64,000 bases of DNA. Source: an uncultured Gemmatimonadales bacterium. GTDB taxonomy: Bacteria > Gemmatimonadota > Gemmatimonadetes > Longimicrobiales > RSA9. Each line of letters starts with the position of its first letter. Within the stretch, counting starts at the first letter, position 1. The notes beneath the pieces are model-generated. The model saw only the letters and a list, made by a program, of their open reading frames with translations, was not told where the DNA came from and did not search any database. Position numbers and translations under genes: made by a program. The DNA is taken from assembly GCA_963741945.1 (NCBI GenBank), contig CAVUKA010000003.1, forward strand, positions 828,489 through 892,488, given 5' to 3'. This document shows, piece after piece, positions 48,608 through 64,000 of the stretch.

Positions 48608-48657
48608 ACCAGCTCGCACCTCCCGTAAAGACTGGATCAGCTTTGGGGGTCACCTCA
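48608..48657 (+). mobile_element. Orphan right end of IS3 element B (50 bp)
   Basis: Identical to 47895-47944. Confidence 0.9.
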
Positions 48658-49555: not shown

Positions 49556-50734
49556 TCAGGTGACCGCAGACCCGCGCAAGCGTCTTAGCTTCCGAGCCGC
49601 AGCAATCAGACGGGTCGCCGCGTAATCTACGTCTTCTTCCGTCGTCGTTCTCCCCAGTCCAATCCGTACTCCCTCACGAACCTGTTCGGGGGTGAGACCA
49701 ATCGCCGAGAGCACATGCGACGGCTGCGCTTTCGCACTCGCGCAGGCTGCGCCGGTGGAGAAGGCTAGGTCCGGAAGGTTGACCACGAGAGACTTCGCCT
49801 TTACGCCGGGAATGCCAAACGCCAGGTTGTGCGGAAGCCTTTCCCGCGGGTGGCCGTGCAGTCGCAGGTCGTCGAAATCCGATCGTAGACGGTCGAGGAG
49901 GCGGTCCCGAAGACTTCTCAGCCGCTCCCCCTCGGCTTCCAAGCGCTTGGCGGCGATTTCAGCGGCTGCGCCCAGTCCGACGATTCCGGGGACGTTCAGC
50001 GTCCCGGAACGCCACCCGCTTTCTTGCCCTCCTCCGAATTGCCGAGCCTGCAGCTTCACGCGCGGGTTCCGTGAGCGTACGTACAAAGCTCCAACGCCTT
50101 TGGGACCATAAAATTTGTGAGCACTCAAGGAAACGAGGTCGAGACCGAGTCCCTCGATACTTATGGGAATGTGCCCAACTGCCTGCGTTGCGTCAGTGTG
50201 AAACAGAACGCCGGCTTCTCGCGTGGCGCCCGCGATAACGGAGAGCGGTGCAAGTGTCCCGATTTCGTTATTCGCAGCCATTACGCTGACGAGAATCGTA
50301 TCCGGGCGCAGAGCCGCCGCCACACGATGAGGGTCCACGCGCCCCTCGTTGTCGACGCCGAGAAAGGTGATTTCGAATCCGCTATCCTCGAGGTGCCGGA
50401 GCGGATCGAGAACTGAAGGGTGCTCCGTCTGGACAGAAATGATGTGGCGCCCGCGCTCGCGATACTGCTCGGCGGCTCCAAGAAGGGCCAGGTTGTTTGA
50501 CTCGGTTGCCCCGCTAGTGAATACAATGTCGTCAGCGGAACAGCCGAGGAGTAACGCTAGTTGTTCCCTCGCGCGATCCACAGCGACGGTGGCCTCGTGC
50601 CCCAGGCGATGGTCACGGCTGGAAGCATTCCCGAACGCCCTGGTAAAGAACGGCAGCATTGCGTCGAGCACACCCGGATCAACAGGCGTTGTGGAATGAT
50701 GATCGAGGTAAACCGGGCGTTCTTCTCCTGTCAT
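49556..50734 (-). CDS. dndA: Cysteine desulfurase, DndA/IscS-type
   Basis: 'YLDHHSTTP', 'FTSGATESNN', 'SAHKFYGPKG', 'STGAAC'; ATGA overlap with dndE. Confidence 0.9.
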   Translation of the reverse strand: MTGEERPVYLDHHSTTPVDPGVLDAMLPFFTRAFGNASSRDHRLGHEATVAVDRAREQLALLLGCSADDIVFTSGATESNNLALLGAAEQYRERGRHIISVQTEHPSVLDPLRHLEDSGFEITFLGVDNEGRVDPHRVAAALRPDTILVSVMAANNEIGTLAPLSVIAGATREAGVLFHTDATQAVGHIPISIEGLGLDLVSLSAHKFYGPKGVGALYVRSRNPRVKLQARQFGGGQESGWRSGTLNVPGIVGLGAAAEIAAKRLEAEGERLRSLRDRLLDRLRSDFDDLRLHGHPRERLPHNLAFGIPGVKAKSLVVNLPDLAFSTGAACASAKAQPSHVLSAIGLTPEQVREGVRIGLGRTTTEEDVDYAATRLIAAARKLRRLRGSAVT

Positions 50735-51123
50735 GCAGCCGTGCGCGCCTGCGAGGGCACGAGGCCGAGGAGGTCCGAGTAATCGCGGACGCGGTTGCAG
50801 ACCATGTTTGCGCCGCGATTCATGTGAGCTCGGAGCTGGGACAGGTACTCTCCGTCGGGATCTAGGCCGTCCTGCAGAAGCCGCTCCTTCAGGTAAACGT
50901 CGAACAGTTGCTCCCACTCCCCGAAGAGCGTCGATCTGTTCAGCTCCGGTCCCTCTTCATCGAAGGACTCCGCCTGTGGGATTCCAGGCTCCGCGAGGGA
51001 CATGATGAACCCGAGCCTGCATAGCAAGTTTGGTGTGACGCCTAGCTTTCCCTTTAGATTGCGGAGCCGAAACCCGACGTCCGAGCTAAGCCGAAGCCGG
51101 TTCCATTTCACTTGCGCGCTCAT
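50731..51123 (-). CDS. dndE: DNA sulfur modification protein DndE
   Basis: 'LKGKLGVTPNLLCRLGFIMSL...ELNRSTLFGE...AHMNRG'. Confidence 0.9.
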   Translation of the reverse strand: MSAQVKWNRLRLSSDVGFRLRNLKGKLGVTPNLLCRLGFIMSLAEPGIPQAESFDEEGPELNRSTLFGEWEQLFDVYLKERLLQDGLDPDGEYLSQLRAHMNRGANMVCNRVRDYSDLLGLVPSQARTAA

Positions 51124-53143
51124 AGGTCCCTCCGTCCCAGAAGTACCCGGGTTCAATGACGGTGTGTTGCCAATCTTCTATGAACTCCAACCGGTAGCTA
51201 CGAGCAGTAGCGCCGGCGAGACCCTCGAAGTAAATGCGGTCGATTTCGGTGTCCGTCGAGAGAATGATCACCTGGTGCGCGGCTTCCGGGAAATATCCTT
51301 CGATTAGGCGCCGTCGATGATCTGCGTCCAAGCGCCCGAGCGGTGTGTCAATGATCAGCGGCAACGGCCTGCCGGATGTCTGCGCAAGTGCCCAAAGCAT
51401 AGCAATCGCATAGATCTGCTTCTCACCTGCCGAGAGGTCTCGCTTCGGCAAGGCGCGGCCGCCACTGTCTACGAGCAGAACCTCGAACGTTACGGGATCA
51501 ATCCTTACCTGCTCCACAAGTTCATCTTTCCGGGCGAGGCGATTGAAGCACTTCACGAACCGGTCACTCAGGTCAGACAGCTTTTCCTCCGTGAGTCGGG
51601 CCTCAAACCTCGAGAGCACCTCCTGAACGGACTTCATAAGCCGCACACGGGTAACCTCCCCTTGTGCGGCGATAGCTTCCTCTCGGGCCTTTCTGGTCTC
51701 ACGCTCGTTCTGGGTGATCCGCGTACAGAAGCGCTCAATCGCAGCCTCCTGCTGGCGAGCCGCTTGTTCCATCCGTCCGAGGTCCGCGTGGGCGGCGTTC
51801 AGCTCTTCAAGAAGCGGACGGAGCACGTCATCGGCAGGTGCAGCGCGCAACCGCTGCTCAACGCGGGCGCGTGCCCGCGTTGCGCGCTCGAGTCGAGCCT
51901 CCAGATCCTGAACGAGTTCGGGGATTTTGGTCTGCACTTCTCGGATCCATGCCTGAAGCCGCCGTGCGTCGCCTTCCGAAACGTCGAAGACCGGATCGGT
52001 ATGTGCTTCAACGGCGTCCAAGGAGAGGATTTCGCGTACGCGGGCCTTCAGGAGTCGAGAGATCTTCCCGCGGGTCTGGTGGTGGATTTTCTCGAACGTG
52101 CTGACCTCCTCTTCCAATGCGCTGTTCAGCTTCGTCAGCTTCGACATCAGGAGGGTGCGGGCAGCAACCACCTGCTGCCTTTCGGATTCACTCCTAAGCC
52201 TTCGCTCAACGCCCTCGCCGAGCTCCGGCGCAAGCGCAAACGGCAGCAGTGTTTCGCAGAGACTGCGCACATGGGTATTAATCTCGGCCAACTCGGCTTC
52301 AAGTCGTCCGCGCTTCTCGATATACTCCTCGCGCTTCTCAGCGTAAGCGCCGCCCTCGCGGCGAATCCGCTCCTCGATCCGCGCGATTACCTTCTGCTGC
52401 TCAGCGATCGTGGAGCGGATCCTGTCTGCCTCGCTCTCCGCAGCCGCAAGCTCCGCACGGAGTGCAGCTAGTTCCTTCTCCCTTACGGCCGAAGCCTCGC
52501 GAGCCGCCCGGCCGGCGGAGGCGCTCGAGGCTCTCCCGATGAGGACATCGAGGTCAGCTTGGAGCCGGTCCGCGTAATCTAAACCGATCAAGTTCTTGAC
52601 GGAGCGGGCGAAATCGAGGTTCTCCCCATCTTCCGCAAGCGCCTGAATCTTCTCTCCGTCGAAGAAAAACAGCTGCGAAATGCCAGGTGGAATGAGGTCG
52701 CGGACGAAATCCTCCCACTGATCCTGGTCCAGATCGCCGAGCGGCTTACCATCGCGCTTTACGAGGAGGCTCTCTACGGCCCTAGCGCCCCGGATGCGCC
52801 AGCTTCTTTCGACGAGATAATCCGTGGCCTTGCCAGCGTGAACGTGCTGAAACTCAATGGCAACTGCGGCCTCCTCCAGCGACACTGTAGGATTCCGCGG
52901 TCGGTGAATTCGATCCCGTAGAAAGGTTTCGTAATCAACGCGACGCACGCGAGCGCCGAGCGCGCGCTGCCCGTACAGACAGACCCGAATCGCGTCGAGG
53001 ATTGATGTTTTTCCGCTTCCGTTTCGGCCGCCGATCAGCACGATCGGCTTCTTGGGACTGCTGGCGAGCTGTGGTCGCAGATCGATTGCATGCGCGCCGC
53101 AGAACACGCCGTAGTTCTTGAGGCGCAGGCGGGTGATGATCAT
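51086..53143 (-). CDS. dndD: DNA sulfur modification ATPase DndD (SMC-like)
   Basis: 'GGRNGSGKTS', 'LFFFDGEKI', 'LSAGEKQIYA', 'IIDTPLGRLD', 'LSTDTEI'; TAATG coupling to dndC. Confidence 0.95.
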   Translation of the reverse strand: MIITRLRLKNYGVFCGAHAIDLRPQLASSPKKPIVLIGGRNGSGKTSILDAIRVCLYGQRALGARVRRVDYETFLRDRIHRPRNPTVSLEEAAVAIEFQHVHAGKATDYLVERSWRIRGARAVESLLVKRDGKPLGDLDQDQWEDFVRDLIPPGISQLFFFDGEKIQALAEDGENLDFARSVKNLIGLDYADRLQADLDVLIGRASSASAGRAAREASAVREKELAALRAELAAAESEADRIRSTIAEQQKVIARIEERIRREGGAYAEKREEYIEKRGRLEAELAEINTHVRSLCETLLPFALAPELGEGVERRLRSESERQQVVAARTLLMSKLTKLNSALEEEVSTFEKIHHQTRGKISRLLKARVREILSLDAVEAHTDPVFDVSEGDARRLQAWIREVQTKIPELVQDLEARLERATRARARVEQRLRAAPADDVLRPLLEELNAAHADLGRMEQAARQQEAAIERFCTRITQNERETRKAREEAIAAQGEVTRVRLMKSVQEVLSRFEARLTEEKLSDLSDRFVKCFNRLARKDELVEQVRIDPVTFEVLLVDSGGRALPKRDLSAGEKQIYAIAMLWALAQTSGRPLPLIIDTPLGRLDADHRRRLIEGYFPEAAHQVIILSTDTEIDRIYFEGLAGATARSYRLEFIEDWQHTVIEPGYFWDGGTYERASEMEPASA

Positions 53144-54570
53144 TAGTTTCGCTCCGCTCGCAGGGCCAGTAGTTCCTCGGGGGTGCGCCATTCCTCGCGG
53201 AATGCCGCCTCAAGCTGGCTATAGATCCCGGCCCGGCGGTTCATCCCCATGTAGCTACGTTCAACGTCCAGGAGCTTGGCGACCAGTTCAGCCGGGACCT
53301 CATGCTCCGAGCAGATCTCGGCCAGAATGGCGGTCTCCCGAACTCCGTAGCTCCCATTGTCGTCCACCAGCCACGCGAGGTCCACCCCTTTAACTTGGCG
53401 ATAGATGGCCGGTACGGAGTCCTGCCAATCCTGGCGCTCAACTCTCCAGATGCGCCGGATCTCGTGAAGCTCCGATTCCGAGATCAGCGCGAAATCGGTG
53501 TCGCCGGACATTTCCTGTGCGGCCACCTCGGCCTCGAGCAGCTGTTTCAGAAAGGCGCGACAGGTCTCGAGCGAGTAGGGGCCAGGAATGATGGAACCGT
53601 CTTGTTTGAACGAAACCCTACCGTTCTTCCGCTTGTACTCGCGAAGCTCCACCTTTCGCTCTGGGTCCTGCGTCTTCGCGAGCATGTTTCTGAAATCGAG
53701 CAGGGGTGTGAGCCACTCCTGCCCCGAACGGACGAGCGACTCCATGGACTGGTCCTTTACCACCACTGTGCAAACCCAGCATCCGAAGCGGCTATTGCCG
53801 CAGGAGGGTGTTGTCTCGTCAATGACTAGGGGGCATTCGCCCGCGTTCGCGTTCCGATACAAGTCGAGGAGTTCGTGATTATCGTTCCCCCACGGCGAGT
53901 CGACCTCGAGGAGGAACGACCAAATGTCCCGGACCGAGAACTCCTCCACAGGCGTGTAGACAAAGGCATTCGGGAGGCTGGAGTGGCGCTTCAGCAGTTT
54001 GCCCGGGATGCGGTGGAGGCTGAGCACCTGGTCTCTGGTGGTACTCTCACCCCTTCTTACACCCAGGATCATGACGACCTCGCCGTGTTCTGCAACGCGA
54101 TCGAGGATGAACTTGTTCGCCGGCTTGATCTTGAGGCGGTCGGTGCACCAGCGGAAGCGGCTAGAGGGTGCCGCGTACCCATGACCGAGGAGGTTCACCC
54201 AAAAACTATCCGCGAGGGCTGGCTCAACCTTTTCGGCGTGAAAAGGTAGCCCATGGGCGGCAGCGGCCTCGTTGATGCGTGCCAGCGTCGTGTCAATGTA
54301 CTCAACGATAACCGGCGTCTCGACCTGGGTGTCCGAGGCGATGACGAAGATCTTCTTCTTACGCTTCTCGGCTGGCAGGCTGCGTACTGCTTCCCAAATC
54401 AGCTGTAGCGCGGCCGTACTGTCCTTCCCGCCGCTATAACCCACGATCCAAGGGCGGTCATCGCCCACGTAAACTGTGCGAATTTCGTCATAGATATCGT
54501 CGATTGTCCTGTGATCGAACACCGAAGGCGGCTCGTCTTCGGAAACCACCCGAACCAACTGCTCAGCCAC
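53143..54570 (-). CDS. dndC: DNA phosphorothioation sulfurtransferase DndC
   Basis: 'PWIVGYSGGKDS', 'RWCTDRLKIKP', 'ECPLVID...SCGNSRFGCWVC'. Confidence 0.96.
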   Translation of the reverse strand: MAEQLVRVVSEDEPPSVFDHRTIDDIYDEIRTVYVGDDRPWIVGYSGGKDSTAALQLIWEAVRSLPAEKRKKKIFVIASDTQVETPVIVEYIDTTLARINEAAAAHGLPFHAEKVEPALADSFWVNLLGHGYAAPSSRFRWCTDRLKIKPANKFILDRVAEHGEVVMILGVRRGESTTRDQVLSLHRIPGKLLKRHSSLPNAFVYTPVEEFSVRDIWSFLLEVDSPWGNDNHELLDLYRNANAGECPLVIDETTPSCGNSRFGCWVCTVVVKDQSMESLVRSGQEWLTPLLDFRNMLAKTQDPERKVELREYKRKNGRVSFKQDGSIIPGPYSLETCRAFLKQLLEAEVAAQEMSGDTDFALISESELHEIRRIWRVERQDWQDSVPAIYRQVKGVDLAWLVDDNGSYGVRETAILAEICSEHEVPAELVAKLLDVERSYMGMNRRAGIYSQLEAAFREEWRTPEELLALRAERN

Positions 54571-54910
54571 GCTGCCCCCAATGGGGCGATCCCGCCCCGT
54601 CGAAAAGATTTGGTTCGTCGCGTTCGGCCTCGCTCTGGTCGAGTCTGCGTGCCTCCGCTTCCTCAGCCAAAACCTGCCCTAAGCGCTTAGAAACCGCCAA
54701 TATCCGCTCACCCTGAATCTGCAGAATTGCAGCAACCGCCTTCAGGTTATCCGGCCGAGGTACGCGCTCCCCCGTCCGCCAGTAGTGTAGGGTTTGAGGG
54801 TGTAGCCCGGCCCGCTGCATCACCGCGCGGATGGAGAGCTGCGAGGCCTGTGCAGCTTCCTCTGCGAGCTTCTGCAGTTGGTCCGTGCTGATCGTTTGCC
54901 AGTCAGCCAT
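54563..54910 (-). CDS. XRE-type HTH protein (alternative start 54949)
   Basis: 'LSIRAVMQRAGLHPQTLHYWRTGERVPRPDNL'; stop overlaps the dndC start. Confidence 0.7.
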   Translation of the reverse strand: MADWQTISTDQLQKLAEEAAQASQLSIRAVMQRAGLHPQTLHYWRTGERVPRPDNLKAVAAILQIQGERILAVSKRLGQVLAEEAEARRLDQSEAERDEPNLFDGAGSPHWGQRG

Positions 54911-54937
54911 AGGTGCTGCGGGATACGAAGTTAGACA

Positions 54938-54975
54938 ATCGTAAAACATCTTCCTCCTGTTGACAAGAATCTCAA
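54938..54975 (-). promoter_or_regulatory. Putative sigma70 promoter/operator of the XRE-dndCDEA operon
   Basis: Minus strand TTGTCA-N17-TACGAT; palindrome TTGA-N8-TCAA (54960-54975) over the -35 box. Confidence 0.5.
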
Positions 54976-55099
54976 CTTCTCGCCCCGGATACTAGTGCTG
55001 GCTGGAAGACGGAGGCGAAGGCGACCCCCGGGACGGCTGCACTGCCGATTTTGCTTGACGGCTGAGTCCTCCCAAACTCCGAACCTTCGCGAGCGGATT

Positions 55100-55588: not shown

Positions 55589-57569
55589 CTCGCTCCTCCT
55601 CCCGGAACTCGACTGAGTCGAAGAACGCCCGATCGCGGACGATCACGCCCCCCTCCACGCGTTGAACCCCGTTCGGGGGGAGCTTATCAAGAAGTTCTTG
55701 ATTTTCAGGGCGATCGGCAAACGCGGTCAAGAAGATCACGTTGTCACTGCCGGCTGAGCGCTCCAGTGCCGGCACAAAGCCGGCGCGCTCTCGGTCGATG
55801 ATAAATCCGACGAACTGGGGGCAAATGTGAGGGAGCTTCCCTCCCACCTCTGAGGCCACGCGCGTGTCCAATGCAAGCGCTGGCGCGTCAACTACGAACG
55901 GCAGCGAATTGTGCCCCCTGCCGAACAGCGTCGACAGAAAGCTGTAGCCCACAGCGAGAGTCTGTCCCTGACTAGCTCCCTTTTGGCCGCTCAGGATCAG
56001 CGATCGATCGATCGCTTCGACGGTGATCTCATGCCCCTCCAAGACGTCGCTGAGATTTCGATTCATGTCCTCCACGATCGCGTCGCTAAGCTGCCTCAAC
56101 GCTATCTGGCGAGCCCGAGACAGAATGGTTCTCAAGGTCTGAGTATTCTGACGCAGGGTCAGAGTTTCCGTGACTTCGGCGTACGCATTCTCTGCGTCTT
56201 CTAGCTCCCTGTCCCAAAAAGCGATACAGAGAAGTGAATCGTCCGTCTTCCTGTCCGTCGGCTTCGGCTTCCGGGTCAGCTCCTCAATCACCCCTACGAG
56301 CTTTCCGAGGCGCGACTCTTTGGCCTCCAGATCTGACAGTATCACAGCGAGCTCGTCGTCCCCCTGCTCGACCAGTTGCTGGGCGATTCCGGTGAGCCGT
56401 GTATCGATAGCGTCTCGGTCGTGTGCTGCGGCCGCGAGCCGCTGCCCCAGCTCCGAAAGTGAGGCGGTGGGCGCCTCGACGGCTTCCACCATGCGTGCCA
56501 CATCTGTCTTGAGTGCGTTGATCACTCCGGCGGCATCGTCAGCGAGGTACTGCTCTGATTTTCGACGAATGCTGTCCTTCGAACTCTCGTCGAGCGGGCG
56601 GCCGCAAATGCACTCGACTTCCTCGAGGAGTTCCTCGAAGAAGCGCCGAGACGTGCTCTCAGGGAGCTTCAACCTGTCCAGGTGGTCTCTTAGCTGCACG
56701 AGTGCATCGGCCACCCGACGGTTGAACTTGTGAGGCTCGCGCAATCGGTCCATGAGGGCACCAGAACCCGTAGCGACGTCCTCTGCGGCGAATTCAAGCT
56801 GCCGTTGCAGTTCCTCCCGCTTCGTCCGCAGCTCCTCCGTCCGACCGGTATGGAGATCCCTTCGGCCGCGAAGTTCAGCGACGTCTTGCTCTAGGATATC
56901 TGTGTGGGCACTTGCCTCACGCAACGCTTCCTTCAACTCTCGAACCTTGCTCCTCAACTCATCGCGGCGATTCTTGCGCGCCGTGAGGCCAGCCTGCGCC
57001 GTGGCACCCACCTTATCCGCGCGTTTCTCCCAGATCCCGTTAAGCGCTGCGCCCAGCTCGTCCAAGAGGTAAAGCTGAAAAAATGCTTCGATGGCTTCCT
57101 CTGCGCGTGTATTCGCGGAATCCAGGAGTGCCTGGGGTAACTCCCCATCGAAAACGATCAGGTTCACGAAATGCGGTTCTAGGAAGCGGAGCAGTTCAAC
57201 CGGCGGGTCGTACTTCGCCTTCTGCCCCCGATGGAATGTCGTCGCGTAGTGAATCAGTCCGGCTTCGAAGTCGAAATCCATGCGGAACGTGAGAGGACTC
57301 CCGTCGAATCGAAGACGGAGTTCAAAGCTACCGCTGTCCGCCGATAGACCCCTTCGCCGGAACGACCGGACCTTTTCTTGGTCCCAATTTCGGGCTTCAC
57401 CAGTGAGCGCGGCGCGGAGGCAGCGCAGGGTGGTTGTCTTTCCCGTTCCGTTCGGCATCTGAAGCAGTGCGACTCGAGCGGGAGATTGCCTGTCGCCTTT
57501 ACGGAAGTCAAAGGAAAAGTCTGGGCAGCGAAGGTTATGCGCCTCCCAACCCAATAGTTCCAAGTTCAT
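55581..57569 (-). CDS. pbeC: PbeC-like Rad50/SMC-type ATPase with CxC motif
   Basis: 'MPNGTGKTT', 'VFDGE', coiled coils with 'ECICGR', 'ASQGQ', 'FVVDAP'. Confidence 0.78.
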   Translation of the reverse strand: MNLELLGWEAHNLRCPDFSFDFRKGDRQSPARVALLQMPNGTGKTTTLRCLRAALTGEARNWDQEKVRSFRRRGLSADSGSFELRLRFDGSPLTFRMDFDFEAGLIHYATTFHRGQKAKYDPPVELLRFLEPHFVNLIVFDGELPQALLDSANTRAEEAIEAFFQLYLLDELGAALNGIWEKRADKVGATAQAGLTARKNRRDELRSKVRELKEALREASAHTDILEQDVAELRGRRDLHTGRTEELRTKREELQRQLEFAAEDVATGSGALMDRLREPHKFNRRVADALVQLRDHLDRLKLPESTSRRFFEELLEEVECICGRPLDESSKDSIRRKSEQYLADDAAGVINALKTDVARMVEAVEAPTASLSELGQRLAAAAHDRDAIDTRLTGIAQQLVEQGDDELAVILSDLEAKESRLGKLVGVIEELTRKPKPTDRKTDDSLLCIAFWDRELEDAENAYAEVTETLTLRQNTQTLRTILSRARQIALRQLSDAIVEDMNRNLSDVLEGHEITVEAIDRSLILSGQKGASQGQTLAVGYSFLSTLFGRGHNSLPFVVDAPALALDTRVASEVGGKLPHICPQFVGFIIDRERAGFVPALERSAGSDNVIFLTAFADRPENQELLDKLPPNGVQRVEGGVIVRDRAFFDSVEFREEERDG

Positions 57570-57784
57570 GTTTCAGTCCCAAGATCGGTTTTCAGGGCCG
57601 ACTCAAGCGCGCGGTAGTGCTCTTCCACATCGCTTCCCCGCCCGAGGTTGGATTCTCCTCTTGCAGTCGCTCGCAACCATGCCAGGAGACGATCGGCGAC
57701 GACGTCATCCTGCCCGTTTTCGCGCACCGCCTCCCTTATTGCCCCAACCACCTGGCTGTCGAAGATTTGATCTCCCGTACTCAA
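57566..57784 (-). CDS. pbeB: PbeB-like small protein
   Basis: 72 aa, 'IREAVRENGQDDVVADRLLAWL'; overlaps both neighbours by 4 nt. Confidence 0.65.
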   Translation of the reverse strand: MSTGDQIFDSQVVGAIREAVRENGQDDVVADRLLAWLRATARGESNLGRGSDVEEHYRALESALKTDLGTET

Positions 57785-59745
57785 GCCTTCCTCCTCGTTC
57801 TTGAGAGTTGGGTAAGCCAGTTCCTTCTCTCAGCATCAGCGCTCACGGGCTCCCCATCGTCGAGATTTTCATCCAACGCATCCGCCCGTACGAAATCAAC
57901 GATCAAGGCTCGCTTTTCCGGATTAAGAGGATCCGTTCTGAGGCACCGGCCCATACGCTGTATGGTCTCCAGTTTAGCCCGATCGGATGCGAACAAAACC
58001 ACCGTGGTCAGACCGCGGACGTCGATACCCTCAGAAATCCTGTGGCATGTTATGAGGCAATCAAGTTCGCCCTTCGCAAAAGCCTCCAACCGGTCTTGCT
58101 GATCATCGCTGTAGTATGTCGAGTACCGACTCGTATAGCCGTGTACAAGGTCCAAGAGTTGCTCACCGAAGGCGGTGTCGTGGACAAAGATGATGCAGCT
58201 CTCCAGAGCGGACGAGTTGCTTTTCAGGTACTCAGAAAAGGCAGGTATCTTGTTCTCGGCCGTCTTGTAGACGTCTGAGAGGCGCCTCCACACCTCTTCC
58301 TTCGTCATCGGCTTCCCTTCTTTGGCCCGAGCTGCCTGGAGTCCGTAGACTGCCTGCAATCGCTGGCGGTCGTAGTCGGTTAATTCAAAGACGAGCTCAT
58401 GATAGTCGAACTCGCAGAGGATGCCCCGCTCGATAGCCTCAGAGAGCCCGAAGCGAAAAATCACTTCGCCGACCTCCTCCTCTATGAATATGTTGCCTTC
58501 TTCATCGTATGTGCGTTCGGGAGTCGCGCTCAGGCCTAGAACATACCGAAACTGCCTGTGTGCACCTGACAATTCGGCGCGGTTCTGGGGACTTCCAAAC
58601 CGATGCACCTCATCGTGTACAATCATCGTTCGCGGATGGGCGGCTGGTGGGAGCCCTTTGATCACGCTCGCAAGTTGCTGCCGAGAGGCCACGAGCACGG
58701 ATTTGCGTGGGTGAGCAACATACCGGCCGAGCTGGTGGTACCGGTCAAAGTGCCGATAGATCGAGATACGCGGCTCGTCGATCCATCGAATCAGTTCCCC
58801 AGCCCATTGATTCAGCAAGTCGGTCCCAAACGTCGCCACAATCAGGCTGTCGATCTCACCCAGTTCGTAGAGTGTGCTGAAGATCCTGAGTGCCGTGCGG
58901 GTCTTGCCAGTTCCTGTGGCCATCTCCAGGACGCCGCGCTTCTTGTCCAAGAAAGCGGCTATCGCAGCATCCTGGTGACGCCAGAGGTTCTCGGGTTCGG
59001 GGCGAGACTTGGGAGCCGAGAAGGGAGGCGTGTCAGGAGAATACGTGCGGATTTGCTCCAGAAACGCCTCGGAAGGCTCTGAAATGGCAAGTCCCTTAAG
59101 TCGTCCCTCCCACGCTTCCTCAAACTGCTGCACCTTGGTCCTGACTCTTGTCTCGTCCCCGGCGACCCAACTCCGGAAGACATCTAGGGTTTCATGGTTG
59201 CGCGAGTGGCCGCCTTGCGTTTCGTTGGCAGAGCCTGTGAAAGCGACAGAGTATCCTCCGTCGAATTCGAACACTCCGATCTTTTCGTGGAAGATCGCCC
59301 CGCTCTCGAAACGCTCAGGGAGAGCGAAGCGGAGAGCCAGCCGTTCGTTGGCAATCATCCACGCAAATACCTCCCGACGCACATCCGACAATTCAGTTGG
59401 CTGGAGACTCTGCATCAACTGACTAAGAAGGTCGTCAACGACCTTTCGGCGCAGCTTCTCCCGAGCCTCACCTCCCTCCACAGCGCGCCGTAGGGCCTTC
59501 AAGTCCTCGTCGGAGAGCACCGGCGCAATGAGCAGCCGAATCCCCGCGCTACTCGCGTTCAAGAGGCGGGGGAGCGCCCCCACCCAGCTCGCGAGGGCGT
59601 CGGTCGTGAAATACGCCGCTGCTCGGCTGTAACGGGAGCAATGGCTCAAACAGGGCTCGAAGAAGTCCGTAGCAAGATCGCTCGTTCCCGACCTATAGTG
59701 CGGCTTAAGGTGTGCAATAGCGCTCGGGAGTTCATGCATCGTCAC
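57781..59745 (-). CDS. pbeA: PbeA-like PLD-nuclease/SF2 helicase fusion
   Basis: 'IFHEKIG...FTGSANET' (PLD), 'MATGTGKT', 'DEVH', 'GLSATPER', 'EGIDV', 'IQRMGRCLR'. Confidence 0.82.
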   Translation of the reverse strand: MTMHELPSAIAHLKPHYRSGTSDLATDFFEPCLSHCSRYSRAAAYFTTDALASWVGALPRLLNASSAGIRLLIAPVLSDEDLKALRRAVEGGEAREKLRRKVVDDLLSQLMQSLQPTELSDVRREVFAWMIANERLALRFALPERFESGAIFHEKIGVFEFDGGYSVAFTGSANETQGGHSRNHETLDVFRSWVAGDETRVRTKVQQFEEAWEGRLKGLAISEPSEAFLEQIRTYSPDTPPFSAPKSRPEPENLWRHQDAAIAAFLDKKRGVLEMATGTGKTRTALRIFSTLYELGEIDSLIVATFGTDLLNQWAGELIRWIDEPRISIYRHFDRYHQLGRYVAHPRKSVLVASRQQLASVIKGLPPAAHPRTMIVHDEVHRFGSPQNRAELSGAHRQFRYVLGLSATPERTYDEEGNIFIEEEVGEVIFRFGLSEAIERGILCEFDYHELVFELTDYDRQRLQAVYGLQAARAKEGKPMTKEEVWRRLSDVYKTAENKIPAFSEYLKSNSSALESCIIFVHDTAFGEQLLDLVHGYTSRYSTYYSDDQQDRLEAFAKGELDCLITCHRISEGIDVRGLTTVVLFASDRAKLETIQRMGRCLRTDPLNPEKRALIVDFVRADALDENLDDGEPVSADAERRNWLTQLSRTRRKA

Positions 59746-62270
59746 GGCACATCCTCTCCGAGCTGCCGCACAAGCTCTGCCTGAGCCTCCCGTCGTTTGA
59801 GGCTCTCATAGCGTTCCAGCAGGCTCTCGAGGTCCAGGGGCGCTTCTATTGAGTCCGGCTGGCTCCGAGGTTGGAGGCGGAGCCTGTCTCGCGCCCACCC
59901 AATGTTCGAATCCGAGATGCGTCGAGAAACCTCCTCGTAGAAGCGCTCCCTCGACCACTCTCCGGGCCTTGACTCGAGCGGGTGAAAAATCTGCTGCAGA
60001 TTTGCCCTAGCGTCGGGGCGAGCGTCGTGTGATTTCCACCAATCAGAAGAAGTGGCGAGGATTTCGGTGAGGGTGAGGAGGGCGACGGCGGTGACGCCGG
60101 TAGACGCGTCCAAGCGCTTCCCCAAGACTCGATTTGCCCGGACCCAGTTCATCTGGCCTGTGGAAATCGCCACTCTGGCGACAGCGAACAGTCGCTCGAG
60201 ATCGACAGAGCTTACTTCTAGGTCGGCAGGCAGTTCAGAAATGGGCCCCATACTATTACAACGACCATCGCCGTGGAATCGATTGCGCGCGACTTCAGAG
60301 ACCGGCCACTTGCTGGGTTCGGCGACAGAGAGTAAGCCATTGTAAAGCCTGGAGGGCACGGCACCCTCCCCCCAGCGGACCCAATCAAACTCCATCCCCG
60401 ACGTCCACAGGGGGAAGGCATTCAGAGGCTCTCCTCCTTGACGTGCCAGGACATACCAGAAGAGATCATTCTCATTTAGAAGAAACTCGGCGCTCGTTGA
60501 GACCGGATCCAACGCCAACAGATGCCGAGGCAAACCGTAGACTCCGGGGGCCAACCTCACGAAGGCTCCGTGTATGGTCAGCACGGCAGCGGCAGAGCTG
60601 TCGGGGTACCGCGCTTCTGTCCGTTCGCGGAACCGTGCGATCAGCTCGCGGGACGGCAGCGGGCCCTCGCTTGCGAGCACCGACGCAAGCTGGCCAGCGA
60701 TCGTCTGATCGCCTTCGTTTGGAGGGGACCGCTTCAGTGCCTCAGCCGCCTGCACAGGAATGCCAGCGAGGTAATCGGTGACGGGGATAAAAGGAGGAGC
60801 AGGCTCCATTTTCCAATCGACCGCCCCGATTCCGAGGTCGCCGCAGTCGAGGAACAAGTGCGAAAAATCCTCATCGCTAACCGTTCGTTGCACGTCGTTC
60901 ACGGTCAAGGAACTGCCCGCTTCCCGCGCGAGGACCCAGAGGCGGAGCAGCGGAATCGGCCGTCCTCTCCCCACGAGCAGGTCGTGGAGATCTAGCGCAC
61001 GGCGGCGATAAGTGGTGAGAGGCCGCCTACATGCGTATTGCCTGTATGGGATGAGGTTTTCGGACACTACTGCGGCCAACGCCCACGGAACTCCCTCCCC
61101 TAACTTCAGGTCCTCCAGCCGCCGCGCGACCAAGTCCTGGAACGATCGCTCAAGCTCAAGAGAAGCCTGGAGAATCGCCTCTCTATGAAGGGGACCTCGA
61201 TAAAAGGCGTTGCCGAGGTACTGACTCGTCGCGTCTAGCCACTCCTCGATCCCTCCGGCGTGCACGGTGAGATACAGACGTTCCAGCCCCTCAAGTGCCG
61301 CATCCCAGGCATCCGGATCCCGGATAACGAAATTCGTTGAGAGCGCGAGTTTCCGCCACAGCATTTGGTCGACCGATTTCGGGATACCCCGGCCGTCATT
61401 GAGCTTCTCAAATGTGCGATTGCGGATTTGGCGGACTCGCTCCCGCGTAACGCCGAGCTCAGCCCCAAGTTCGTCCAGCGTAAGGCGCTCCGTTTTCCGG
61501 TCTGGGAATCGAGCAGCCACGATTCGTCTTTCGCGGCCCTTCAGAGCGGCGCTCTGCTGCTCCCACCACTCAGCGGGCGTGCTGTACGTAGGGTGAGGCG
61601 GGATGGCTTCGCTGCTCTCGGATGCACATGACTCCTCTGAAGCAGTGCCGAACTCCGGCCCGTCAGACGCGGGCGCTGGCGTGGTGCTGCCCATGGAGTC
61701 TGAGGAAAGACCCCCAGCGGTGCTTTGGGACCGATCATCTTCTCCTGCGCTGCCTGTTGCTCCAGGTACAACTCTGGCGACACCGAGCTTCCGCAGTCCC
61801 CGCACGAGTTCCGCAGCCCCCTTACGCCCCAACAGTGGGATCTGCCGGAAGTCTTGAACTCCCCAACCCGCAAAGTCAGCCAGCCTTTGAAAGCCGCTTC
61901 GCAGCAATGCGTTCGAGATTCTCGTGCTTAGCTCGAGCTCCTCGACCGGTGTGGTCCGGAGTCGCGGGGGGATATGTAGTGGGGGTTTGCTACGTCGCAT
62001 CGGTTCGATTTGTGGCTCAGATGAGCGAGTCAGGACCCGAACAACGGACCTGACGGGTGGCAGGGGGTGGGACCAGCAGCTGAGACCGAACTCATTTTTC
62101 GCAACAAAGATGTTAGCGAGCGATGGATGCGGCAAGCGACAACTACTTTCCTCCACTGGCCAAAATGGCCCAACGCTTATCCTCTCTCCCCGTAGGGCTA
62201 CTTGTGCCTCAGGTTCGAAGGATGGGCGACGTTTTCCAGGCGGATGCGGCACGTTGGCCTCCGTGATCAC
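59742..62270 (-). CDS. Large protein with RNAP alpha-CTD-like and sigma70 region-4 HTH domains (start uncertain)
   Basis: 'VEELELSTRISNALLRSG...IPLLGRKGAAEL'; 'RERRIVAARF...TLDELGAELGVTRERVRQI'. Confidence 0.75.
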   Translation of the reverse strand: MITEANVPHPPGKRRPSFEPEAQVALRGERISVGPFWPVEESSCRLPHPSLANIFVAKNEFGLSCWSHPLPPVRSVVRVLTRSSEPQIEPMRRSKPPLHIPPRLRTTPVEELELSTRISNALLRSGFQRLADFAGWGVQDFRQIPLLGRKGAAELVRGLRKLGVARVVPGATGSAGEDDRSQSTAGGLSSDSMGSTTPAPASDGPEFGTASEESCASESSEAIPPHPTYSTPAEWWEQQSAALKGRERRIVAARFPDRKTERLTLDELGAELGVTRERVRQIRNRTFEKLNDGRGIPKSVDQMLWRKLALSTNFVIRDPDAWDAALEGLERLYLTVHAGGIEEWLDATSQYLGNAFYRGPLHREAILQASLELERSFQDLVARRLEDLKLGEGVPWALAAVVSENLIPYRQYACRRPLTTYRRRALDLHDLLVGRGRPIPLLRLWVLAREAGSSLTVNDVQRTVSDEDFSHLFLDCGDLGIGAVDWKMEPAPPFIPVTDYLAGIPVQAAEALKRSPPNEGDQTIAGQLASVLASEGPLPSRELIARFRERTEARYPDSSAAAVLTIHGAFVRLAPGVYGLPRHLLALDPVSTSAEFLLNENDLFWYVLARQGGEPLNAFPLWTSGMEFDWVRWGEGAVPSRLYNGLLSVAEPSKWPVSEVARNRFHGDGRCNSMGPISELPADLEVSSVDLERLFAVARVAISTGQMNWVRANRVLGKRLDASTGVTAVALLTLTEILATSSDWWKSHDARPDARANLQQIFHPLESRPGEWSRERFYEEVSRRISDSNIGWARDRLRLQPRSQPDSIEAPLDLESLLERYESLKRREAQAELVRQLGEDVP

Positions 62271-62734
62271 AACTCAAACAGCAGCGTAGCGAGCAGGGGT
62301 TCGGCCTCGTCCATCGGAATAGCCGAGATGAGGAGCCGGCCTGCCTCCGACCTTAGTTCCGGCGACCTGACCAGCAGATCCCACACTTCGTCTGTCAGCC
62401 CGCCAACAGCTCGCGCAGCAATCAAGTCTCGGGGAGAAACGTCACCCTGGGCAGAGACCTTCAACCCTTCCGAAGGGATCACGACCCAGATGCCGTCGTT
62501 CTGAAGTCGCCAAAATGGATAGTTCGGTTGGAGCCGAGTTCGCGCAGCGTCGAACTGAGCCAGCAAAGTCGTGAGCGCGTCGTGCACTTCGGCATAGGGA
62601 AGGAAGCGGCGCCCCCTTAGCCTACATTCACGCAGCGCATACAATAAGAGCAGCGGTTTGTGAGGAGCCCTTTCGCCAGCGCGCTTCCAGCGGACGATCG
62701 CTCCCAGACGCTCCAACATTTGGCGTTCCGTCAC
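62267..62734 (-). CDS. Stand-alone sulfur-binding-domain (SBD)-like protein, no HNH domain
   Basis: 'GERAPHKPLLLLYAL' and 'PNYPFWRLQNDGIW', the signature of the N-terminal domain of ScoMcrA-type PT-dependent endonucleases; GGAGGT RBS. Confidence 0.75.
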   Translation of the reverse strand: MTERQMLERLGAIVRWKRAGERAPHKPLLLLYALRECRLRGRRFLPYAEVHDALTTLLAQFDAARTRLQPNYPFWRLQNDGIWVVIPSEGLKVSAQGDVSPRDLIAARAVGGLTDEVWDLLVRSPELRSEAGRLLISAIPMDEAEPLLATLLFEL

Positions 62735-62836
62735 GTGAGATCACCTCCGCCGGTCGTCGCTCATGCTACGATCGAAGTTCCCAAAATTACGCCCCATATC
62801 GAGTTTCGAAGTTATGAAATGCCTTTTGTATTGAAT

Positions 62837-63941: not shown

Positions 63942-64000
63942 AGGGCTCCTTTGGTGGAAAACCGTTCATGGGTTGCCGCTAATGTAGGACCCGCTGCTAC

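What the first reader, a model, noticed from the sequence alone, without database searches (positions are those of the whole stretch)
49556..62734. Extended phosphorothioation defence locus: SBD + alphaCTD/sigma4 + pbeABCD-like + XRE-dndCDEA
Seen: six genes from 62734 to 55100 are chained by start/stop overlaps (SBD-like, 842-aa alphaCTD/sigma4 protein, PLD-helicase, 72-aa protein, CxC SMC-ATPase, 162-aa protein). They are followed by an overlapping XRE-dndC-dndD-dndE-dndA chain, and no dndFGH is present in the window. Known: DndCDEA-PbeABCD was described as a PT-based antiviral system in haloarchaea, with four Pbe genes and the dndCDEA order. Inference: this is a bacterial version with two extra co-translated components that I do not recognise from the described system, suggesting a variant with a dedicated PT reader and a transcription-linked sensor or regulator.
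Basis: partly seen in the sequence, partly recalled or inferred. Interest (0 to 1): 0.88.

Follow-up and report, generated by a model that had tools for sequence, protein, structure and literature searches.

The report
Dnd-Pbe defence island with extra readers
A horizontally acquired gene cluster combines a known sulfur-marking (phosphorothioate) DNA system and its known anti-virus partner PbeABCD with two extra DNA-reading genes, one of which is a stand-alone reader of the sulfur mark that could explain how this defence tells own DNA from foreign DNA.

Summary
Eleven co-directional genes lie at 62734-49556 on the minus strand, in a low-GC island at a contig end. Their order is SBD-only protein, 842-aa alphaCTD/sigma4 protein, PbeA, PbeB, PbeC (CxC motif present), PbeD, a 150-nt gap, then XRE-DndC-DndD-DndE-DndA.

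The core is not new. Dnd plus Pbe (the CxC-ATPase system) is published for hundreds of bacterial taxa (PMC6459918, PMC10853773).

The 842-aa protein is not a sigma factor. It belongs to a large unnamed family: sigma region 4 followed by a roughly 540-residue module containing winged-helix domains. A family member sits directly upstream of pbeA in three other loci I examined, those with the closest PbeA (49-51% identity). It is absent from 13 of 15 PbeA plasmids and from 4 of 5 PbeA genomes in one sample, so it is an optional fifth partner. Five earlier notes of this scan reached the same reading on other DNA.

The new element is the 155-aa sulfur-binding domain without a nuclease. Its pocket residues are intact and it is tightly coupled to the next gene, but I found this arrangement only here. 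In the three proteobacterial loci that slot holds a RelA/SpoT-like gene instead.

Verdict: a new variant of a known kind. It offers a testable candidate for the unknown phosphorothioate sensor of Pbe.

The parts
62267..62734 (-). Stand-alone sulfur-binding domain (SBD) protein, 155 aa (150 aa if it starts at the ATG at 62719). No nuclease domain.
   Evidence: NF045808 positions 3-136 of 284, 112 bits, below the 180-bit cut-off because the HNH half is missing. PDB 5zmo_A/7cc9_A E 4e-12 to 4e-11. Pocket residues H25, K26, Y72 and P73 are present (roles from PMC6224610). No HNH remnant anywhere in the window.
59742..62270 (-). 842-aa multi-domain DNA-binding protein ('Sig4L'), an optional fifth partner of PbeABCD. 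Probable start at 62252.
   Evidence: Pfam hits only for RNA_pol_A_CTD and Sigma70_r4. Family of 329 50%-identity clusters at E<=1e-10. A family member lies directly upstream of pbeA in L113, L114 and L123.
61794..61955 (-). alphaCTD-like helix-hairpin-helix domain (residues 106-159)
   Evidence: PF03118 28.2 bits against a cut-off of 23.8. Present in 6 of 40 family members scanned.
61401..61547 (-). Sigma-70 region 4 HTH (residues 242-290)
   Evidence: PF04545 46.9 bits. Present in 40 of 40 family members. 39% identical over 61 aa to a sigma factor of the same genome, with the stretch GVTRERVRQ identical.
59745..61370 (-). Conserved C-terminal module (residues 301-842): at least two winged helices plus a Trp-rich helical end
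   Evidence: AF2 model with pLDDT 90.1 and pTM 0.88. VIA-align finds winged-helix matches at model residues 218-285 (Z 9.1, 2od5_A) and 118-186 (Z 7.5). Foldseek found nothing at E<=1e-3.
57781..59745 (-). PbeA: HKD (PLD-like) nuclease fused to an SF2 helicase
   Evidence: PDLC02703 786 bits. ResIII, Helicase_C and a weak PLDc_2 hit. H153-x-K155, a GTGKT motif and a DEVH motif are present.
57566..57784 (-). PbeB: small protein of CxC-ATPase systems, 72 aa
   Evidence: PF20304 27.2 bits against a cut-off of 27.5. 40% identity over 52 aa to the genes annotated 'CxC ATPase DNA modification system associated small protein' in L113 and L114.
55581..57569 (-). PbeC: CxC-type coiled-coil ABC ATPase
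   Evidence: PADLOC PbeC 64 bits. C320-I-C322 sits at mid-length and NGTGKT is the Walker A motif. 28-37% identical to PbeC of six other loci.
55100..55588 (-). PbeD, 162 aa (called a DndE cognate in PMC10853773)
   Evidence: 30-34% identical to the fourth gene of six pbe loci. AF2 model pLDDT 82. The best of 48,161 chains is DndE 7x4e_A (Z 5.2, 106 residues aligned); DndE 5wtu_A is rank 4. hhalign against DndE was inconclusive.
54950..55099 (.). 150-nt gap between pbeD and the XRE gene, possibly the promoter region of the dnd operon
   Evidence: Junction table. One sigma-70-like match at 54966-54938, no more than chance would give.
54563..54949 (-). XRE-family HTH protein in the position where dndB usually lies
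   Evidence: HTH_3 25.2 bits. No dndB found in the genome. No homolog in the other eight loci compared.
53143..54570 (-). DndC sulfurtransferase
   Evidence: TIGR03183 556 bits against a cut-off of 290. It is the only dndC in the genome.
51086..53191 (-). DndD ABC ATPase
   Evidence: PDLC02663 694 bits. AAA_23 and SMC_N hits. No CxC motif.
50731..51156 (-). DndE
   Evidence: PF08870 80 bits. PDLC02669 130 bits.
49556..50917 (-). DndA / IscS-type cysteine desulfurase
   Evidence: PADLOC DndA 509 bits. TIGR03235 420 bits, below its 480-bit cut-off. The SAHK (PLP lysine) motif and Cys392 are present.

Best explanation
This is a horizontally acquired phosphorothioate (PT) defence island.

Shown by sequence:
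- XRE-DndCDEA is the PT-writing module.
- PbeABCD is the known CxC-ATPase-centred anti-invader module: an HKD nuclease-SF2 helicase, a small protein, a CxC ABC ATPase and a small fourth protein.
- Two accessory genes lead the pbe operon.
- The 842-aa protein is not a sigma factor. It belongs to a large unnamed family of enzyme-free DNA-binding proteins (sigma region 4 plus a winged-helix-containing module, here also with an alphaCTD-like domain). This family recurs directly upstream of pbeA in one PbeA clade.
- The first gene is a sulfur-binding domain with an intact PT pocket and no nuclease.

Inferred:
- DndCDEA marks host DNA.
- The SBD protein reads the Rp-PT mark in trans and passes 'self' information to the Pbe machine, directly or through the 842-aa adaptor.
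- As a result PbeA acts only on unmarked invader DNA, or the pbe genes become active only once the chromosome is marked.
- The slot upstream of the adaptor is exchangeable. Three proteobacterial loci carry a RelA/SpoT-like gene there.
For: Core identities.

Island nature:
- GC is 0.56-0.61 from 48 kb to the window end, against about 0.70 in the first 40 kb of the window.
- All eleven genes have GC 0.57-0.62 and GC3 0.60-0.74, against GC3 0.82-0.84 for the adjacent IS21 genes.
- The Sig4L C-terminal query matched 0 of 60 relatives. A profile of it matched 0 of 400 other genomes of the phylum.

Adaptor linked to Pbe:
- tblastn of residues 301-842 against 72,556 plasmids gave 4 records. Two of them (Rhizobium) have the order RelA/SpoT - homolog - pbeABCD next to dndBCDE-desulfurase.
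- Among 401 genomes of the order of Bradyrhizobium sp. Arg816 (G438), 2 carry the family. One of them, G469, has dndCDEA - RelA/SpoT - homolog - pbeABCD on one strand, with 4-nt and 11-nt overlaps.
- These three loci hold the PbeA closest to the window's (49-51% identity) among the 15 plasmid and 5 genome PbeA hits.
- PbeD homolog P0201 (75% identity) and adaptor homolog P0007 (42-43%) both come from JGI with a longest contig of 27,185 bp, so they are probably on the same contig.

SBD:
- H25, K26, Y72 and P73 correspond to the ScoMcrA sulfur-pocket residues H116, R117 (lysine in most homologs), Y164 and P165.
- Its base composition matches the rest of the island.
- Its stop codon lies 14 nt before, or 4 nt inside, the next gene, and that gene's Shine-Dalgarno sequence lies in the 3' end of the SBD gene.
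- There is no HNH remnant.

Context: Xiong et al. state that how Pbe senses PT is unknown (PMC6459918, discussion passage).
Against: - SBD next to the adaptor or Pbe was seen only in this window.
- None of 151 family representatives carries a fused SBD.
- All annotated SBD hits on plasmids are SBD-HNH enzymes.
- No SBD homolog shares the 27,185-bp contig length of the closest relative system.
- The adaptor is missing from 13 of 15 PbeA plasmids and from 4 of 5 PbeA genomes in the 401-genome sample. It is therefore not needed for core Pbe function.
- The family also occurs without Pbe: beside a C5 methylase and an AIPR-DUF4420-Z1-HATPase operon in G687, and in a toxin-antitoxin-rich region of Acidiphilium plasmids.
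- No expression, binding or PT data exist.
- The base-contact loop of ScoMcrA (SRGRR) reads SAQGDV here, so the sequence preference is unknown.
Confidence: 0.55

Rival explanations
1. Regulatory interlock. The 842-aa protein, with the SBD protein as its PT sensor, is a transcription regulator rather than a subunit of the Pbe machine. It binds promoter-like DNA through its sigma4 and alphaCTD-like domains. It switches pbe expression on or off according to how well the chromosome is PT-marked, as C-proteins time restriction enzymes in R-M systems.
For: - Sigma region 4 is the best conserved part of the family: 10 of the 35 near-invariant columns lie in residues 243-290.
- Its recognition helix is identical over 9 residues to that of a host sigma factor.
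- The family also sits beside unrelated defence operons, sometimes on the opposite strand (G687).
- An AT-rich 5' region with a hairpin precedes the SBD gene.
Against: - 842 aa carrying at least four DNA-binding domains is far larger than known operon regulators.
- Tight start/stop coupling to pbeA is conserved in three distinct loci.
- No operator repeats were found in the 5' region or in the pbeD-XRE gap.
Confidence: 0.22
2. The SBD ORF is a leftover. A former SBD-HNH type IV restriction gene lost its nuclease half, and the remnant merely lies in front of the pbe operon without contributing to it.
For: - 94% of 1722 SBD homologs carry HNH, and no SBD-only clade is listed in the passages I read (PMC10602919).
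- This is the only pbe locus seen with an SBD gene.
- The island carries IS elements and a probably truncated neighbouring gene.
Against: - The domain is complete to its natural end and all pocket residues are kept.
- No HNH remnant survives in any frame: the best match to the HNH half has E 1.4.
- Composition is the same as the operon's.
- The adaptor's ribosome-binding site is embedded in the 3' end of the SBD gene.
- Short SBD proteins that end naturally after the domain occur on long contigs elsewhere, for example P0157 (171 aa, 165 kb) and P0191 (158 aa, 193 kb).
Confidence: 0.15
3. Decoy sensor. The 842-aa protein displays copies of RNA-polymerase surfaces (sigma region 4, alphaCTD) that phages commonly target. 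Binding or modification by a phage takeover protein then releases PbeABCD activity.
For: - Two RNA-polymerase-derived domains occur in one enzyme-free protein.
- Sigma4 is present in 40 of 40 and alphaCTD in 6 of 40 family members.
- The sigma4 helix stays sigma-like while the rest of the protein diverges to 20-28% identity.
- The idea that phages target these surfaces is recalled knowledge, not taken from a call.
Against: - Identity to a sigma factor of its own host is only 39%.
- The gene was acquired horizontally, so it cannot track the host polymerase closely.
- alphaCTD is missing from most members.
- Most of the conserved mass is the winged-helix-containing module.
Confidence: 0.08

Closest known systems
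DndCDEA-PbeABCD of haloarchaea (Xiong et al. 2019, PMC6459918), re-annotated as the CxC ABC-ATPase/DndE-anchored system (Rakesh et al. 2024, PMC10853773)
   Same: - All four Pbe genes are present in the order A-B-C-D: an HKD-SF2 helicase, a small protein, a CxC ATPase and a roughly 160-aa fourth protein.
- dndC-D-E-A are in the same order, with no dndB and no dndFGH.
- PbeA is 36% and DndC 56% identical to those of a Halorubrum plasmid locus.
   Different: - Here pbe lies upstream of dnd, not downstream.
- An XRE gene precedes dndC.
- Two extra genes, an SBD-only gene and an 842-aa DNA-binding protein, lead the pbe operon.
- I did not find either extra gene in the main texts of the two papers (find searches). 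Their supplementary neighbourhood tables could not be read.
SBD-HNH / SBD-SRA-HNH PT-dependent type IV restriction endonucleases (ScoMcrA, SprMcrA; PMC6224610, PMC7470945)
   Same: The same sulfur-binding winged-helix domain with the conserved H, K/R, Y and P pocket.
   Different: - There is no nuclease domain, so it cannot be a PT-dependent restriction enzyme on its own.
- It sits inside a PT-writing island, where a PT-cutting enzyme would attack the host's own DNA.
- The base-contact loop differs.
Rhizobium plasmid loci NZ_CP007048 and NZ_CP021031, and the chromosomal locus of genome G469
   Same: - They have the same adaptor-pbeABCD unit with dnd genes alongside.
- PbeA is 49-51%, PbeC 34-37%, PbeD 34% and the adaptor about 27% identical to the window's.
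   Different: - A RelA/SpoT-like gene (the Rhizobium leguminosarum plasmid and G469 copies are 66% identical to each other) occupies the slot held here by the SBD gene.
- The adaptor N-termini are not alignable with the window's: BLAST matches start at residues 207-222.
- The plasmids have dndB; the window has XRE.
DndG / SspB / FokI-type triple winged-helix DNA readers of PT systems (described in PMC10853773)
   Same: These are also enzyme-free or recognition-only arrays of winged helices attached to a PT-linked restriction module. This is an analogy of role.
   Different: No sequence or fold match to them appeared in my searches, and homology was not tested directly. The window protein additionally carries sigma4 and alphaCTD-like domains.
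MzaA, the sigma-70-family component of the MZA anti-phage system
   Same: It shares a sigma region 4 HTH within a large defence-linked protein (PDLC02203 22 bits, NF041931 31.6 bits).
   Different: Only the 50-residue region 4 matches, and the score is far below the 800-bit cut-off. In MzaA the domain is near the C-terminus, whereas here it is N-terminal to the winged-helix module. The window protein is not a member.

Membership tests
Dnd PT-modification module (DndCDE + desulfurase) | DndC PAPS-reductase-like sulfurtransferase above the curated cut-off | tested here: met
   TIGR03183 556.3 bits against a cut-off of 290.4. It is the only copy in the genome.
Dnd PT-modification module (DndCDE + desulfurase) | DndD coiled-coil ABC ATPase paired with DndE | tested here: met
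   DndD PDLC02663 694 bits; DndE PF08870 80 bits against a cut-off of 25. The two genes are adjacent.
Dnd PT-modification module (DndCDE + desulfurase) | Dedicated cysteine desulfurase DndA | tested here: inconclusive
   PADLOC DndA 509 bits, but TIGR03235 gives 420 bits, below its 480-bit cut-off, and IscS models score as well or better. The PLP lysine motif and Cys392 are present. It is a desulfurase in the dndA position, but equivalog status was not reached.
Dnd PT-modification module (DndCDE + desulfurase) | Phosphorothioate actually present in host DNA at a consensus motif | not testable with these tools
   This needs LC-MS/MS, iodine cleavage or SMRT kinetics.
PbeABCD / CxC ABC-ATPase-anchored system | PbeA: HKD nuclease fused to an SF2 helicase | tested here: met
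   PDLC02703 786 bits across the full length. ResIII, Helicase_C and PLDc_2 hits. HxK, GTGKT and DEVH motifs are present.
PbeABCD / CxC ABC-ATPase-anchored system | ABC ATPase with a CxC Zn-hook motif at the coiled-coil apex (PbeC) | tested here: met
   C320-I-C322 at the middle of 662 aa; DndD of the same locus has none. PADLOC PbeC 64 bits.
PbeABCD / CxC ABC-ATPase-anchored system | Small, fast-evolving protein between PbeA and PbeC (PbeB) | tested here: met
   72 aa. PF20304 27.2 bits, 0.3 bits under the cut-off. 40% identity to two genes annotated as the CxC-system small protein.
PbeABCD / CxC ABC-ATPase-anchored system | Fourth gene orthologous to PbeD | tested here: met
   30-34% identity over about 130-160 aa to the fourth gene in L113, L114, L116, L117, L118 and L123.
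PbeABCD / CxC ABC-ATPase-anchored system | PbeD is a divergent DndE (double RHH) as stated in PMC10853773 | tested here: inconclusive
   hhalign PbeD against DndE profiles gave probability 1.1% with shallow alignments. The AF2 model's best match of 48,161 chains is DndE 7x4e_A (Z 5.2, rmsd 3.8, 106 aligned); DndE 5wtu_A is rank 4 (Z 4.2). This is supportive, but Z is low.
PbeABCD / CxC ABC-ATPase-anchored system | PT-dependent halt of virus propagation | not testable with these tools
   This needs phage assays in a laboratory host.
PT-dependent type IV restriction endonucleases (SBD-HNH) | Sulfur-binding domain with the conserved pocket | tested here: met
   NF045808 positions 3-136. 5zmo_A E 4e-12. 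H25, K26 and P73 are invariant in 20 of 20 aligned SBDs, and Y72 is the majority residue.
PT-dependent type IV restriction endonucleases (SBD-HNH) | Fused nuclease domain (HNH or PD-(D/E)XK) | tested here: not met
   The protein ends after the SBD. The score of 112 bits is below the 180-bit cut-off. tblastn of a 298-aa SBD-HNH matches only its residues 16-156, and the HNH half has a best E of 1.4.
Sigma-70 family sigma factors / MzaA | Region 2 (core binding, -10 recognition) together with region 4; for MzaA, a full-length match | tested here: not met
   Only Sigma70_r4 is found. All NCBIfam sigma models score 17-38 bits against cut-offs of 43-800, and MzaA scores 31.6 against 800.
Unnamed sigma4 + winged-helix family (optional fifth Pbe partner) | Sigma region 4 followed by the conserved roughly 540-aa Trp-rich module containing winged helices | tested here: met
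   phmmer matches span residues about 240-800 in most of the 150 listed representatives. Invariant residues include R424, P575, W622, E627, W633, W655, W709, N713 and W744. Model pLDDT 90.
Unnamed sigma4 + winged-helix family (optional fifth Pbe partner) | Position directly upstream of pbeA on the same strand | tested here: met
   Window: 4-nt overlap. The same position is seen in L113, L114 and L123. It does not hold for family members in G687 and the Acidiphilium plasmids.

The most novel reading that the evidence does not exclude
The SBD-only protein is the missing phosphorothioate sensor of a Pbe system, and the 842-aa protein is a signal-integrating DNA-binding hub. Its upstream slot takes interchangeable input modules: a PT reader here, and a RelA/SpoT-like nucleotide-signalling enzyme in proteobacteria. 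Its fast-diverging N-terminus is matched to that module. Under this reading, Pbe immunity is licensed either by reading the epigenetic mark directly or by a nucleotide signal.
Probability: 0.25. Interest if true: 0.8.

Novelty: new variant of a known kind. Interest (0 to 1): 0.55.

Why it matters
How PbeABCD distinguishes PT-marked host DNA from invader DNA is unknown. The discoverers only speculated that some Pbe protein senses PT (PMC6459918), and a later re-analysis questioned the whole model (PMC10853773). This locus contains an experimentally tractable PT reader without a nuclease as the first gene of a pbe operon. It also contains an enzyme-free multi-domain DNA-binding partner that I did not find in the main texts of those papers. 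That gives direct experiments: whether the SBD binds the motif written by this Dnd module, and whether its loss makes Pbe self-toxic or blind. If the SBD gene is only a remnant, the locus is an ordinary Dnd-Pbe island carrying the optional fifth subunit that this scan has already met several times.

Tried and rejected
- **Complex prediction.** SBD against the whole 842-aa protein gave 'no answer' (score 0.00, controls not run). This counts neither for nor against binding.
- **Expression.** No RNA holder is listed; there is only one soil-metagenome DNA run with a 0.06 share of words, which I did not lay.
- **Searches that found no relatives.**
  - Genome-contig scan with the single protein.
  - Genome-contig scan with alignment A1, which picked the sigma4 motif and returned ordinary sigma factors matching only residues 186-332.
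  - Profile A1 over 400 genomes of the phylum, which again hit only sigma factors at model positions about 80-280, with 2 candidates scored per genome. This was uninformative and was repeated properly with the C-terminal profile A3.
  - Metagenome scan and viral scan.
- **More plasmid queries.** P0010 and P0021 found only the same two Rhizobium records.
- **Fusion test.** No SBD or RelA/SpoT domain is fused to any of 151 family representatives.
- **Fold searches.**
  - Foldseek on the C-terminal model gave nothing at E<=1e-3. The best hit was AlkX/YcaQ at E 0.05, followed by SelB winged-helix arrays.
  - The ESM Atlas gave scores of 0.83-0.84 only, pointing to HARE-HTH/sigma4 clusters; this is a lead, not evidence.
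  - HARE-HTH was found by Pfam in 1 of 40 members at E 0.009.
  - Foldseek on PbeD gave nothing at E<=1e-3.
- **PbeD against DndE by hhalign.** Probability 1.1%.
- **Other negatives.**
  - tRNA genes as an integration site: none in the window.
  - Promoter and terminator scans: no more than chance.
  - orf288 against plasmids: no match.
  - The last 1 kb of the contig is not repeated elsewhere in the assembly.
- **Rejected reading.** The 842-aa protein is not a sigma factor or MzaA, because only region 4 matches.


Full report
**1. What is in the sequence**

The window has about 70% GC up to roughly 40 kb. GC falls to 0.56-0.61 from 48 kb to the end. The window is the last 64 kb of contig C3 of a 4.09-Mb, 8-contig assembly, so the island is cut at 64000.

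Eleven ORFs lie head to tail on the minus strand from 62734 to 49556. By longest ORFs, the first six overlap by 4, 4, 4, 4 and 8 nt. A 150-nt gap follows, and the next five overlap by 8 to 187 nt. The large dnd overlaps are artefacts of taking the longest ORF, because the profile matches begin 17-69 residues in.

The 842-aa gene probably starts at the GTG at 62252. That codon has GGAGG 5 nt upstream and agrees with the 836-aa gene call P0005. This start leaves 14 nt after the SBD stop, with the ribosome-binding site inside the SBD gene.

All eleven genes share GC 0.57-0.62 and GC3 0.60-0.74. The IS21 istA/istB pair downstream has GC3 0.82-0.84.

**2. The known core**

- DndC scores 556 bits against TIGR03183 (cut-off 290).
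- DndD scores 694 bits against PADLOC DndD.
- DndE scores 80 bits against PF08870.
- The last gene is an IscS/DndA-type desulfurase: PADLOC DndA 509 bits, TIGR03235 420 bits (below its 480-bit cut-off), with the PLP lysine and Cys392 present.
- PbeA matches PADLOC PDLC02703 over its full length at 786 bits and keeps the HxK, GTGKT and DEVH motifs.
- The 72-aa gene is the CxC-system small protein: PF20304 27.2 against 27.5 bits, and 40% identity to two annotated examples.
- PbeC has C320-x-C322 at mid-length.
- The 162-aa protein is 30-34% identical to the fourth gene of six other pbe loci.

An AF2 model of PbeD (pLDDT 82) has DndE of Natronorubrum bangense (7x4e_A) as its best match among 48,161 chains: Z 5.2, rmsd 3.8, 106 residues aligned. 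E. coli DndE (5wtu_A) is rank 4. This agrees with the published view that PbeD is a DndE cognate, but Z is low and hhalign saw nothing.

There is one dndC in the genome. No dndB, dndF, dndG or dndH was found with the TIGR models, although the control genomes were also silent for F, G and H.

**3. Dnd-Pbe in bacteria is already published**

- Xiong et al. 2019 (PMC6459918; passages read) report 235 bacterial pbeAC beside dndCD and call the system widespread in Bacteria.
- Rakesh et al. 2024 (PMC10853773; passages read) equate PbeABCD with their CxC ABC-ATPase/DndE system and count tandem DndD and CxC systems in 936 bacterial taxa.

What differs from the archaeal type locus is the order (pbe before dnd), an XRE gene in place of dndB, and the two leading genes.

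**4. The 842-aa protein**

Pfam finds only RNA_pol_A_CTD (residues 106-159) and Sigma70_r4 (242-290). All sigma-factor and MzaA models match region 4 alone, far below their cut-offs. It is not a sigma factor.

A full phmmer scan of 1.84 billion representatives gave 733 hits at E<=1e-3, 329 at E<=1e-10 and 59 at E<=1e-30. The listed matches mostly run from about residue 240 to 750-800. The family is therefore sigma4 plus a conserved C-terminal module, with variable N-termini: a median of 243 and up to 694 residues precede sigma4 in the 121 members where it was located.

Of 40 members scanned with Pfam, 40 have sigma4, 6 have alphaCTD and 1 has a weak HARE-HTH hit.

The C-terminal 542 residues fold with pLDDT 90.1 and pTM 0.88. 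VIA-align finds winged helices at model residues 218-285 (Z 9.1, 2od5_A, followed by many wH domains) and at 118-186 (Z 7.5). Foldseek gave nothing at E<=1e-3; its best rows are multi-winged-helix proteins, AlkX/YcaQ at E 0.05 and SelB. The remaining part of the module has not been assigned a fold.

The sigma4 domain is 39% identical over 61 residues to a sigma factor of the same genome, and the recognition-helix stretch GVTRERVRQ is identical.

**5. Is it linked to Pbe?**

tblastn of residues 301-842 against 72,556 plasmids found 4 records.

- Two Rhizobium plasmids have the order RelA/SpoT-like gene, homolog, pbeA-B-C-D, with convergent dndB-C-D-E-desulfurase.
- Two Acidiphilium plasmids carry a homolog. 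In the one I inspected it lies in a toxin-antitoxin-rich region with no pbe or dnd within 12 kb.

A C-terminal profile (A3) over 401 genomes of the order of Bradyrhizobium sp. Arg816 (G438) hit 2 genomes.

- G469 has dndC-D-E-A, a RelA/SpoT-like gene, the homolog and pbeA-B-C-D all on one strand, with 4-nt and 11-nt overlaps.
- G687 has a 1043-aa member between a C5 DNA methylase and a convergent AIPR-DUF4420-Z1-HATPase_c_3 operon, and no pbe.

In the same 401 genomes PbeA was found in 5, and only G469 has both. Of 15 plasmids with PbeA, only the two Rhizobium ones carry the family. The Bacillus thuringiensis, Halorubrum and Methylobacterium loci that I inspected have pbeABCD without it.

The three positive loci hold the PbeA closest to the window's, at 49-51% identity; the next best is 44%. 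The protein is therefore an optional partner tied to one PbeA clade, and it diverges much faster (about 27%) than PbeA.

In the window's own lineage it was not found. The C-terminal query matched 0 of 60 relatives, and profile A3 matched 0 of 400 other genomes of the phylum. These tallies include the unpublished genomes G224, G038, G202 and G116, and only as negatives.

The closest database relatives, P0006 (46%) and P0007 (42-43%), lack the alphaCTD part. P0007 and the PbeD homolog P0201 (75% identity) both come from JGI with a longest contig of 27,185 bp, so they are probably one contig. I could not fetch it.

I found no mention of such a partner in the main text of PMC10853773, PMC6459918 or the review PMC12707154 (find searches; library searches). 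Supplements were closed and may list it.

Five earlier notes of this scan, on other genomes, describe the same kind of protein as an undescribed optional fifth Pbe partner. I reached the association independently before reading them.

**6. The SBD gene**

The 155-aa protein matches the N-terminal half of the 'phosphorothioated DNA-binding restriction endonuclease' model (positions 3-136 of 284) and the solved SBDs of ScoMcrA and SprMcrA (E 4e-12 to 5e-11).

The residues that PMC6224610 (passages) shows to form the sulfur pocket are kept: H116/R117 correspond to H25/K26, and Y164/P165 to Y72/P73. The same paper notes that lysine is the usual residue at the R117 position. The less conserved A168 is R76 here, and the base-contacting SRGRR loop reads SAQGDV.

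The protein stops at the natural end of the domain. A 298-aa SBD-HNH query matches the window only over its residues 16-156, and nothing resembles the HNH half (best E 1.4).

PMC10602919 (passages) sorts 1722 SBD homologs into seven clades: 94% with HNH, 3% with a kinase and 2.8% with PD-(D/E)XK. No SBD-only clade is mentioned.

Short SBD proteins do exist. There are 41 hits of 85-272 aa (the window's own protein among them), with a best identity of 40%, and several end naturally after the domain on long contigs. I have no genomic context for them.

I found no second case of an SBD gene next to the adaptor or pbe. The three other adaptor-pbe loci have a RelA/SpoT-like gene in that slot (the L113 and G469 copies are 66% identical to each other). 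No family representative has a fused SBD, and plasmid SBD hits are SBD-HNH where annotated.

**7. How it most likely works**

Shown: the domain content, the gene order, the coupling geometry, the conserved pocket, the recurrence of the adaptor with one PbeA clade, and horizontal origin.

Inferred:
- DndCDEA, under XRE control, writes PT on host DNA.
- PbeCD scan DNA, and PbeA, a helicase-nuclease, acts on invaders.
- The 842-aa protein is a many-headed DNA-binding partner of that machine.
- The SBD protein reads PT in trans and supplies the self signal.

A nuclease-free SBD makes sense inside a PT-writing island, where an SBD-HNH enzyme would cut the host's own DNA.

I put about 0.55 on this integrated reading. 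The identity of the Dnd-Pbe core is near certain. The adaptor-Pbe link is well supported. The SBD role rests on one locus.

Rivals are a transcriptional interlock (0.22), a decayed SBD-HNH remnant (0.15) and an RNA-polymerase decoy sensor (0.08).

**8. Verdict**

This is a known system carrying an optional fifth component, which I did not find in the papers I could read but which this scan has met before, plus a stand-alone PT reader seen only here. It is a new variant of a known kind. Its main value is that it makes the open question of PT sensing by Pbe directly testable.

Noticed in passing
window 48655-49521 (-): A 288-aa ORF lies 34 nt downstream of dndA and has no Pfam hit. Its last roughly 75 residues give a weak DpdB/ParB-like match (PDLC02811, E 0.0017), and the ORF ends abruptly next to IS remnants. 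It may be a truncated DndB/ParB-like gene, and its N-terminal part may be nuclease-like. It has no plasmid homolog.
   Followed up: partly
window 44541-47257: An IS21 istA/istB pair (45075-47257, minus strand) and an HTH_21 transposase fragment (44541-45050, plus strand) lie on the inner side of the island. Their GC3 is 0.82-0.84, against 0.60-0.74 for the defence genes. GC starts to fall at about 42 kb.
   Followed up: partly
window 47937-48521 (-) and L116:2388-2954: A 194-aa ORF of odd R/P/L-rich composition is 33% identical over 190 aa to a stretch 6 kb upstream of pbeA in a Methylobacterium bullatum record. It may be the opposite strand of a shared mobile-element gene rather than a real gene.
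   Followed up: no
L113:9789-10874, L114:9381-10466, L123:6731-7831: A RelA/SpoT-domain protein of 361-366 aa directly precedes the sigma4-family gene in all three proteobacterial adaptor-pbe loci, with a 4-nt overlap in G469. Scores are PF04607 39-42 bits and a weak PADLOC PDC-S33 match. The L113 and G469 copies are 66% identical.
   Followed up: partly
L124 (G687:C28:18000-37999): A 1043-aa member of the sigma4 family sits between a divergent C5 cytosine methylase and a convergent four-gene operon, AIPR - DUF4420 - Z1 - HATPase_c_3. The family is therefore not restricted to Pbe systems.
   Followed up: partly
window 62735-62900: An AT-rich stretch lies upstream of the SBD gene and contains a GC-rich hairpin (about 62850-62875 on the minus strand). 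It overlaps the end of a 239-aa ORF (62837-63556) that has no family hit. This could be the operon's promoter or operator region, or a terminator of whatever lies upstream.
   Followed up: no
P0007 and P0201 (database proteins): The adaptor homolog P0007 and the 75%-identical PbeD homolog P0201 are both from JGI with the same longest-contig length, 27,185 bp. The closest relative of this system probably sits on that one contig, which I could not retrieve.
   Followed up: partly
window 53143-54570 (DndC residues 412-457): The C-terminal end of DndC matches Pfam Sp-DndD (PF20306, 43 bits) and PADLOC PbeB (PDLC02708, E 7e-6). The real PbeB of this locus matches no PADLOC PbeB model.
   Followed up: no
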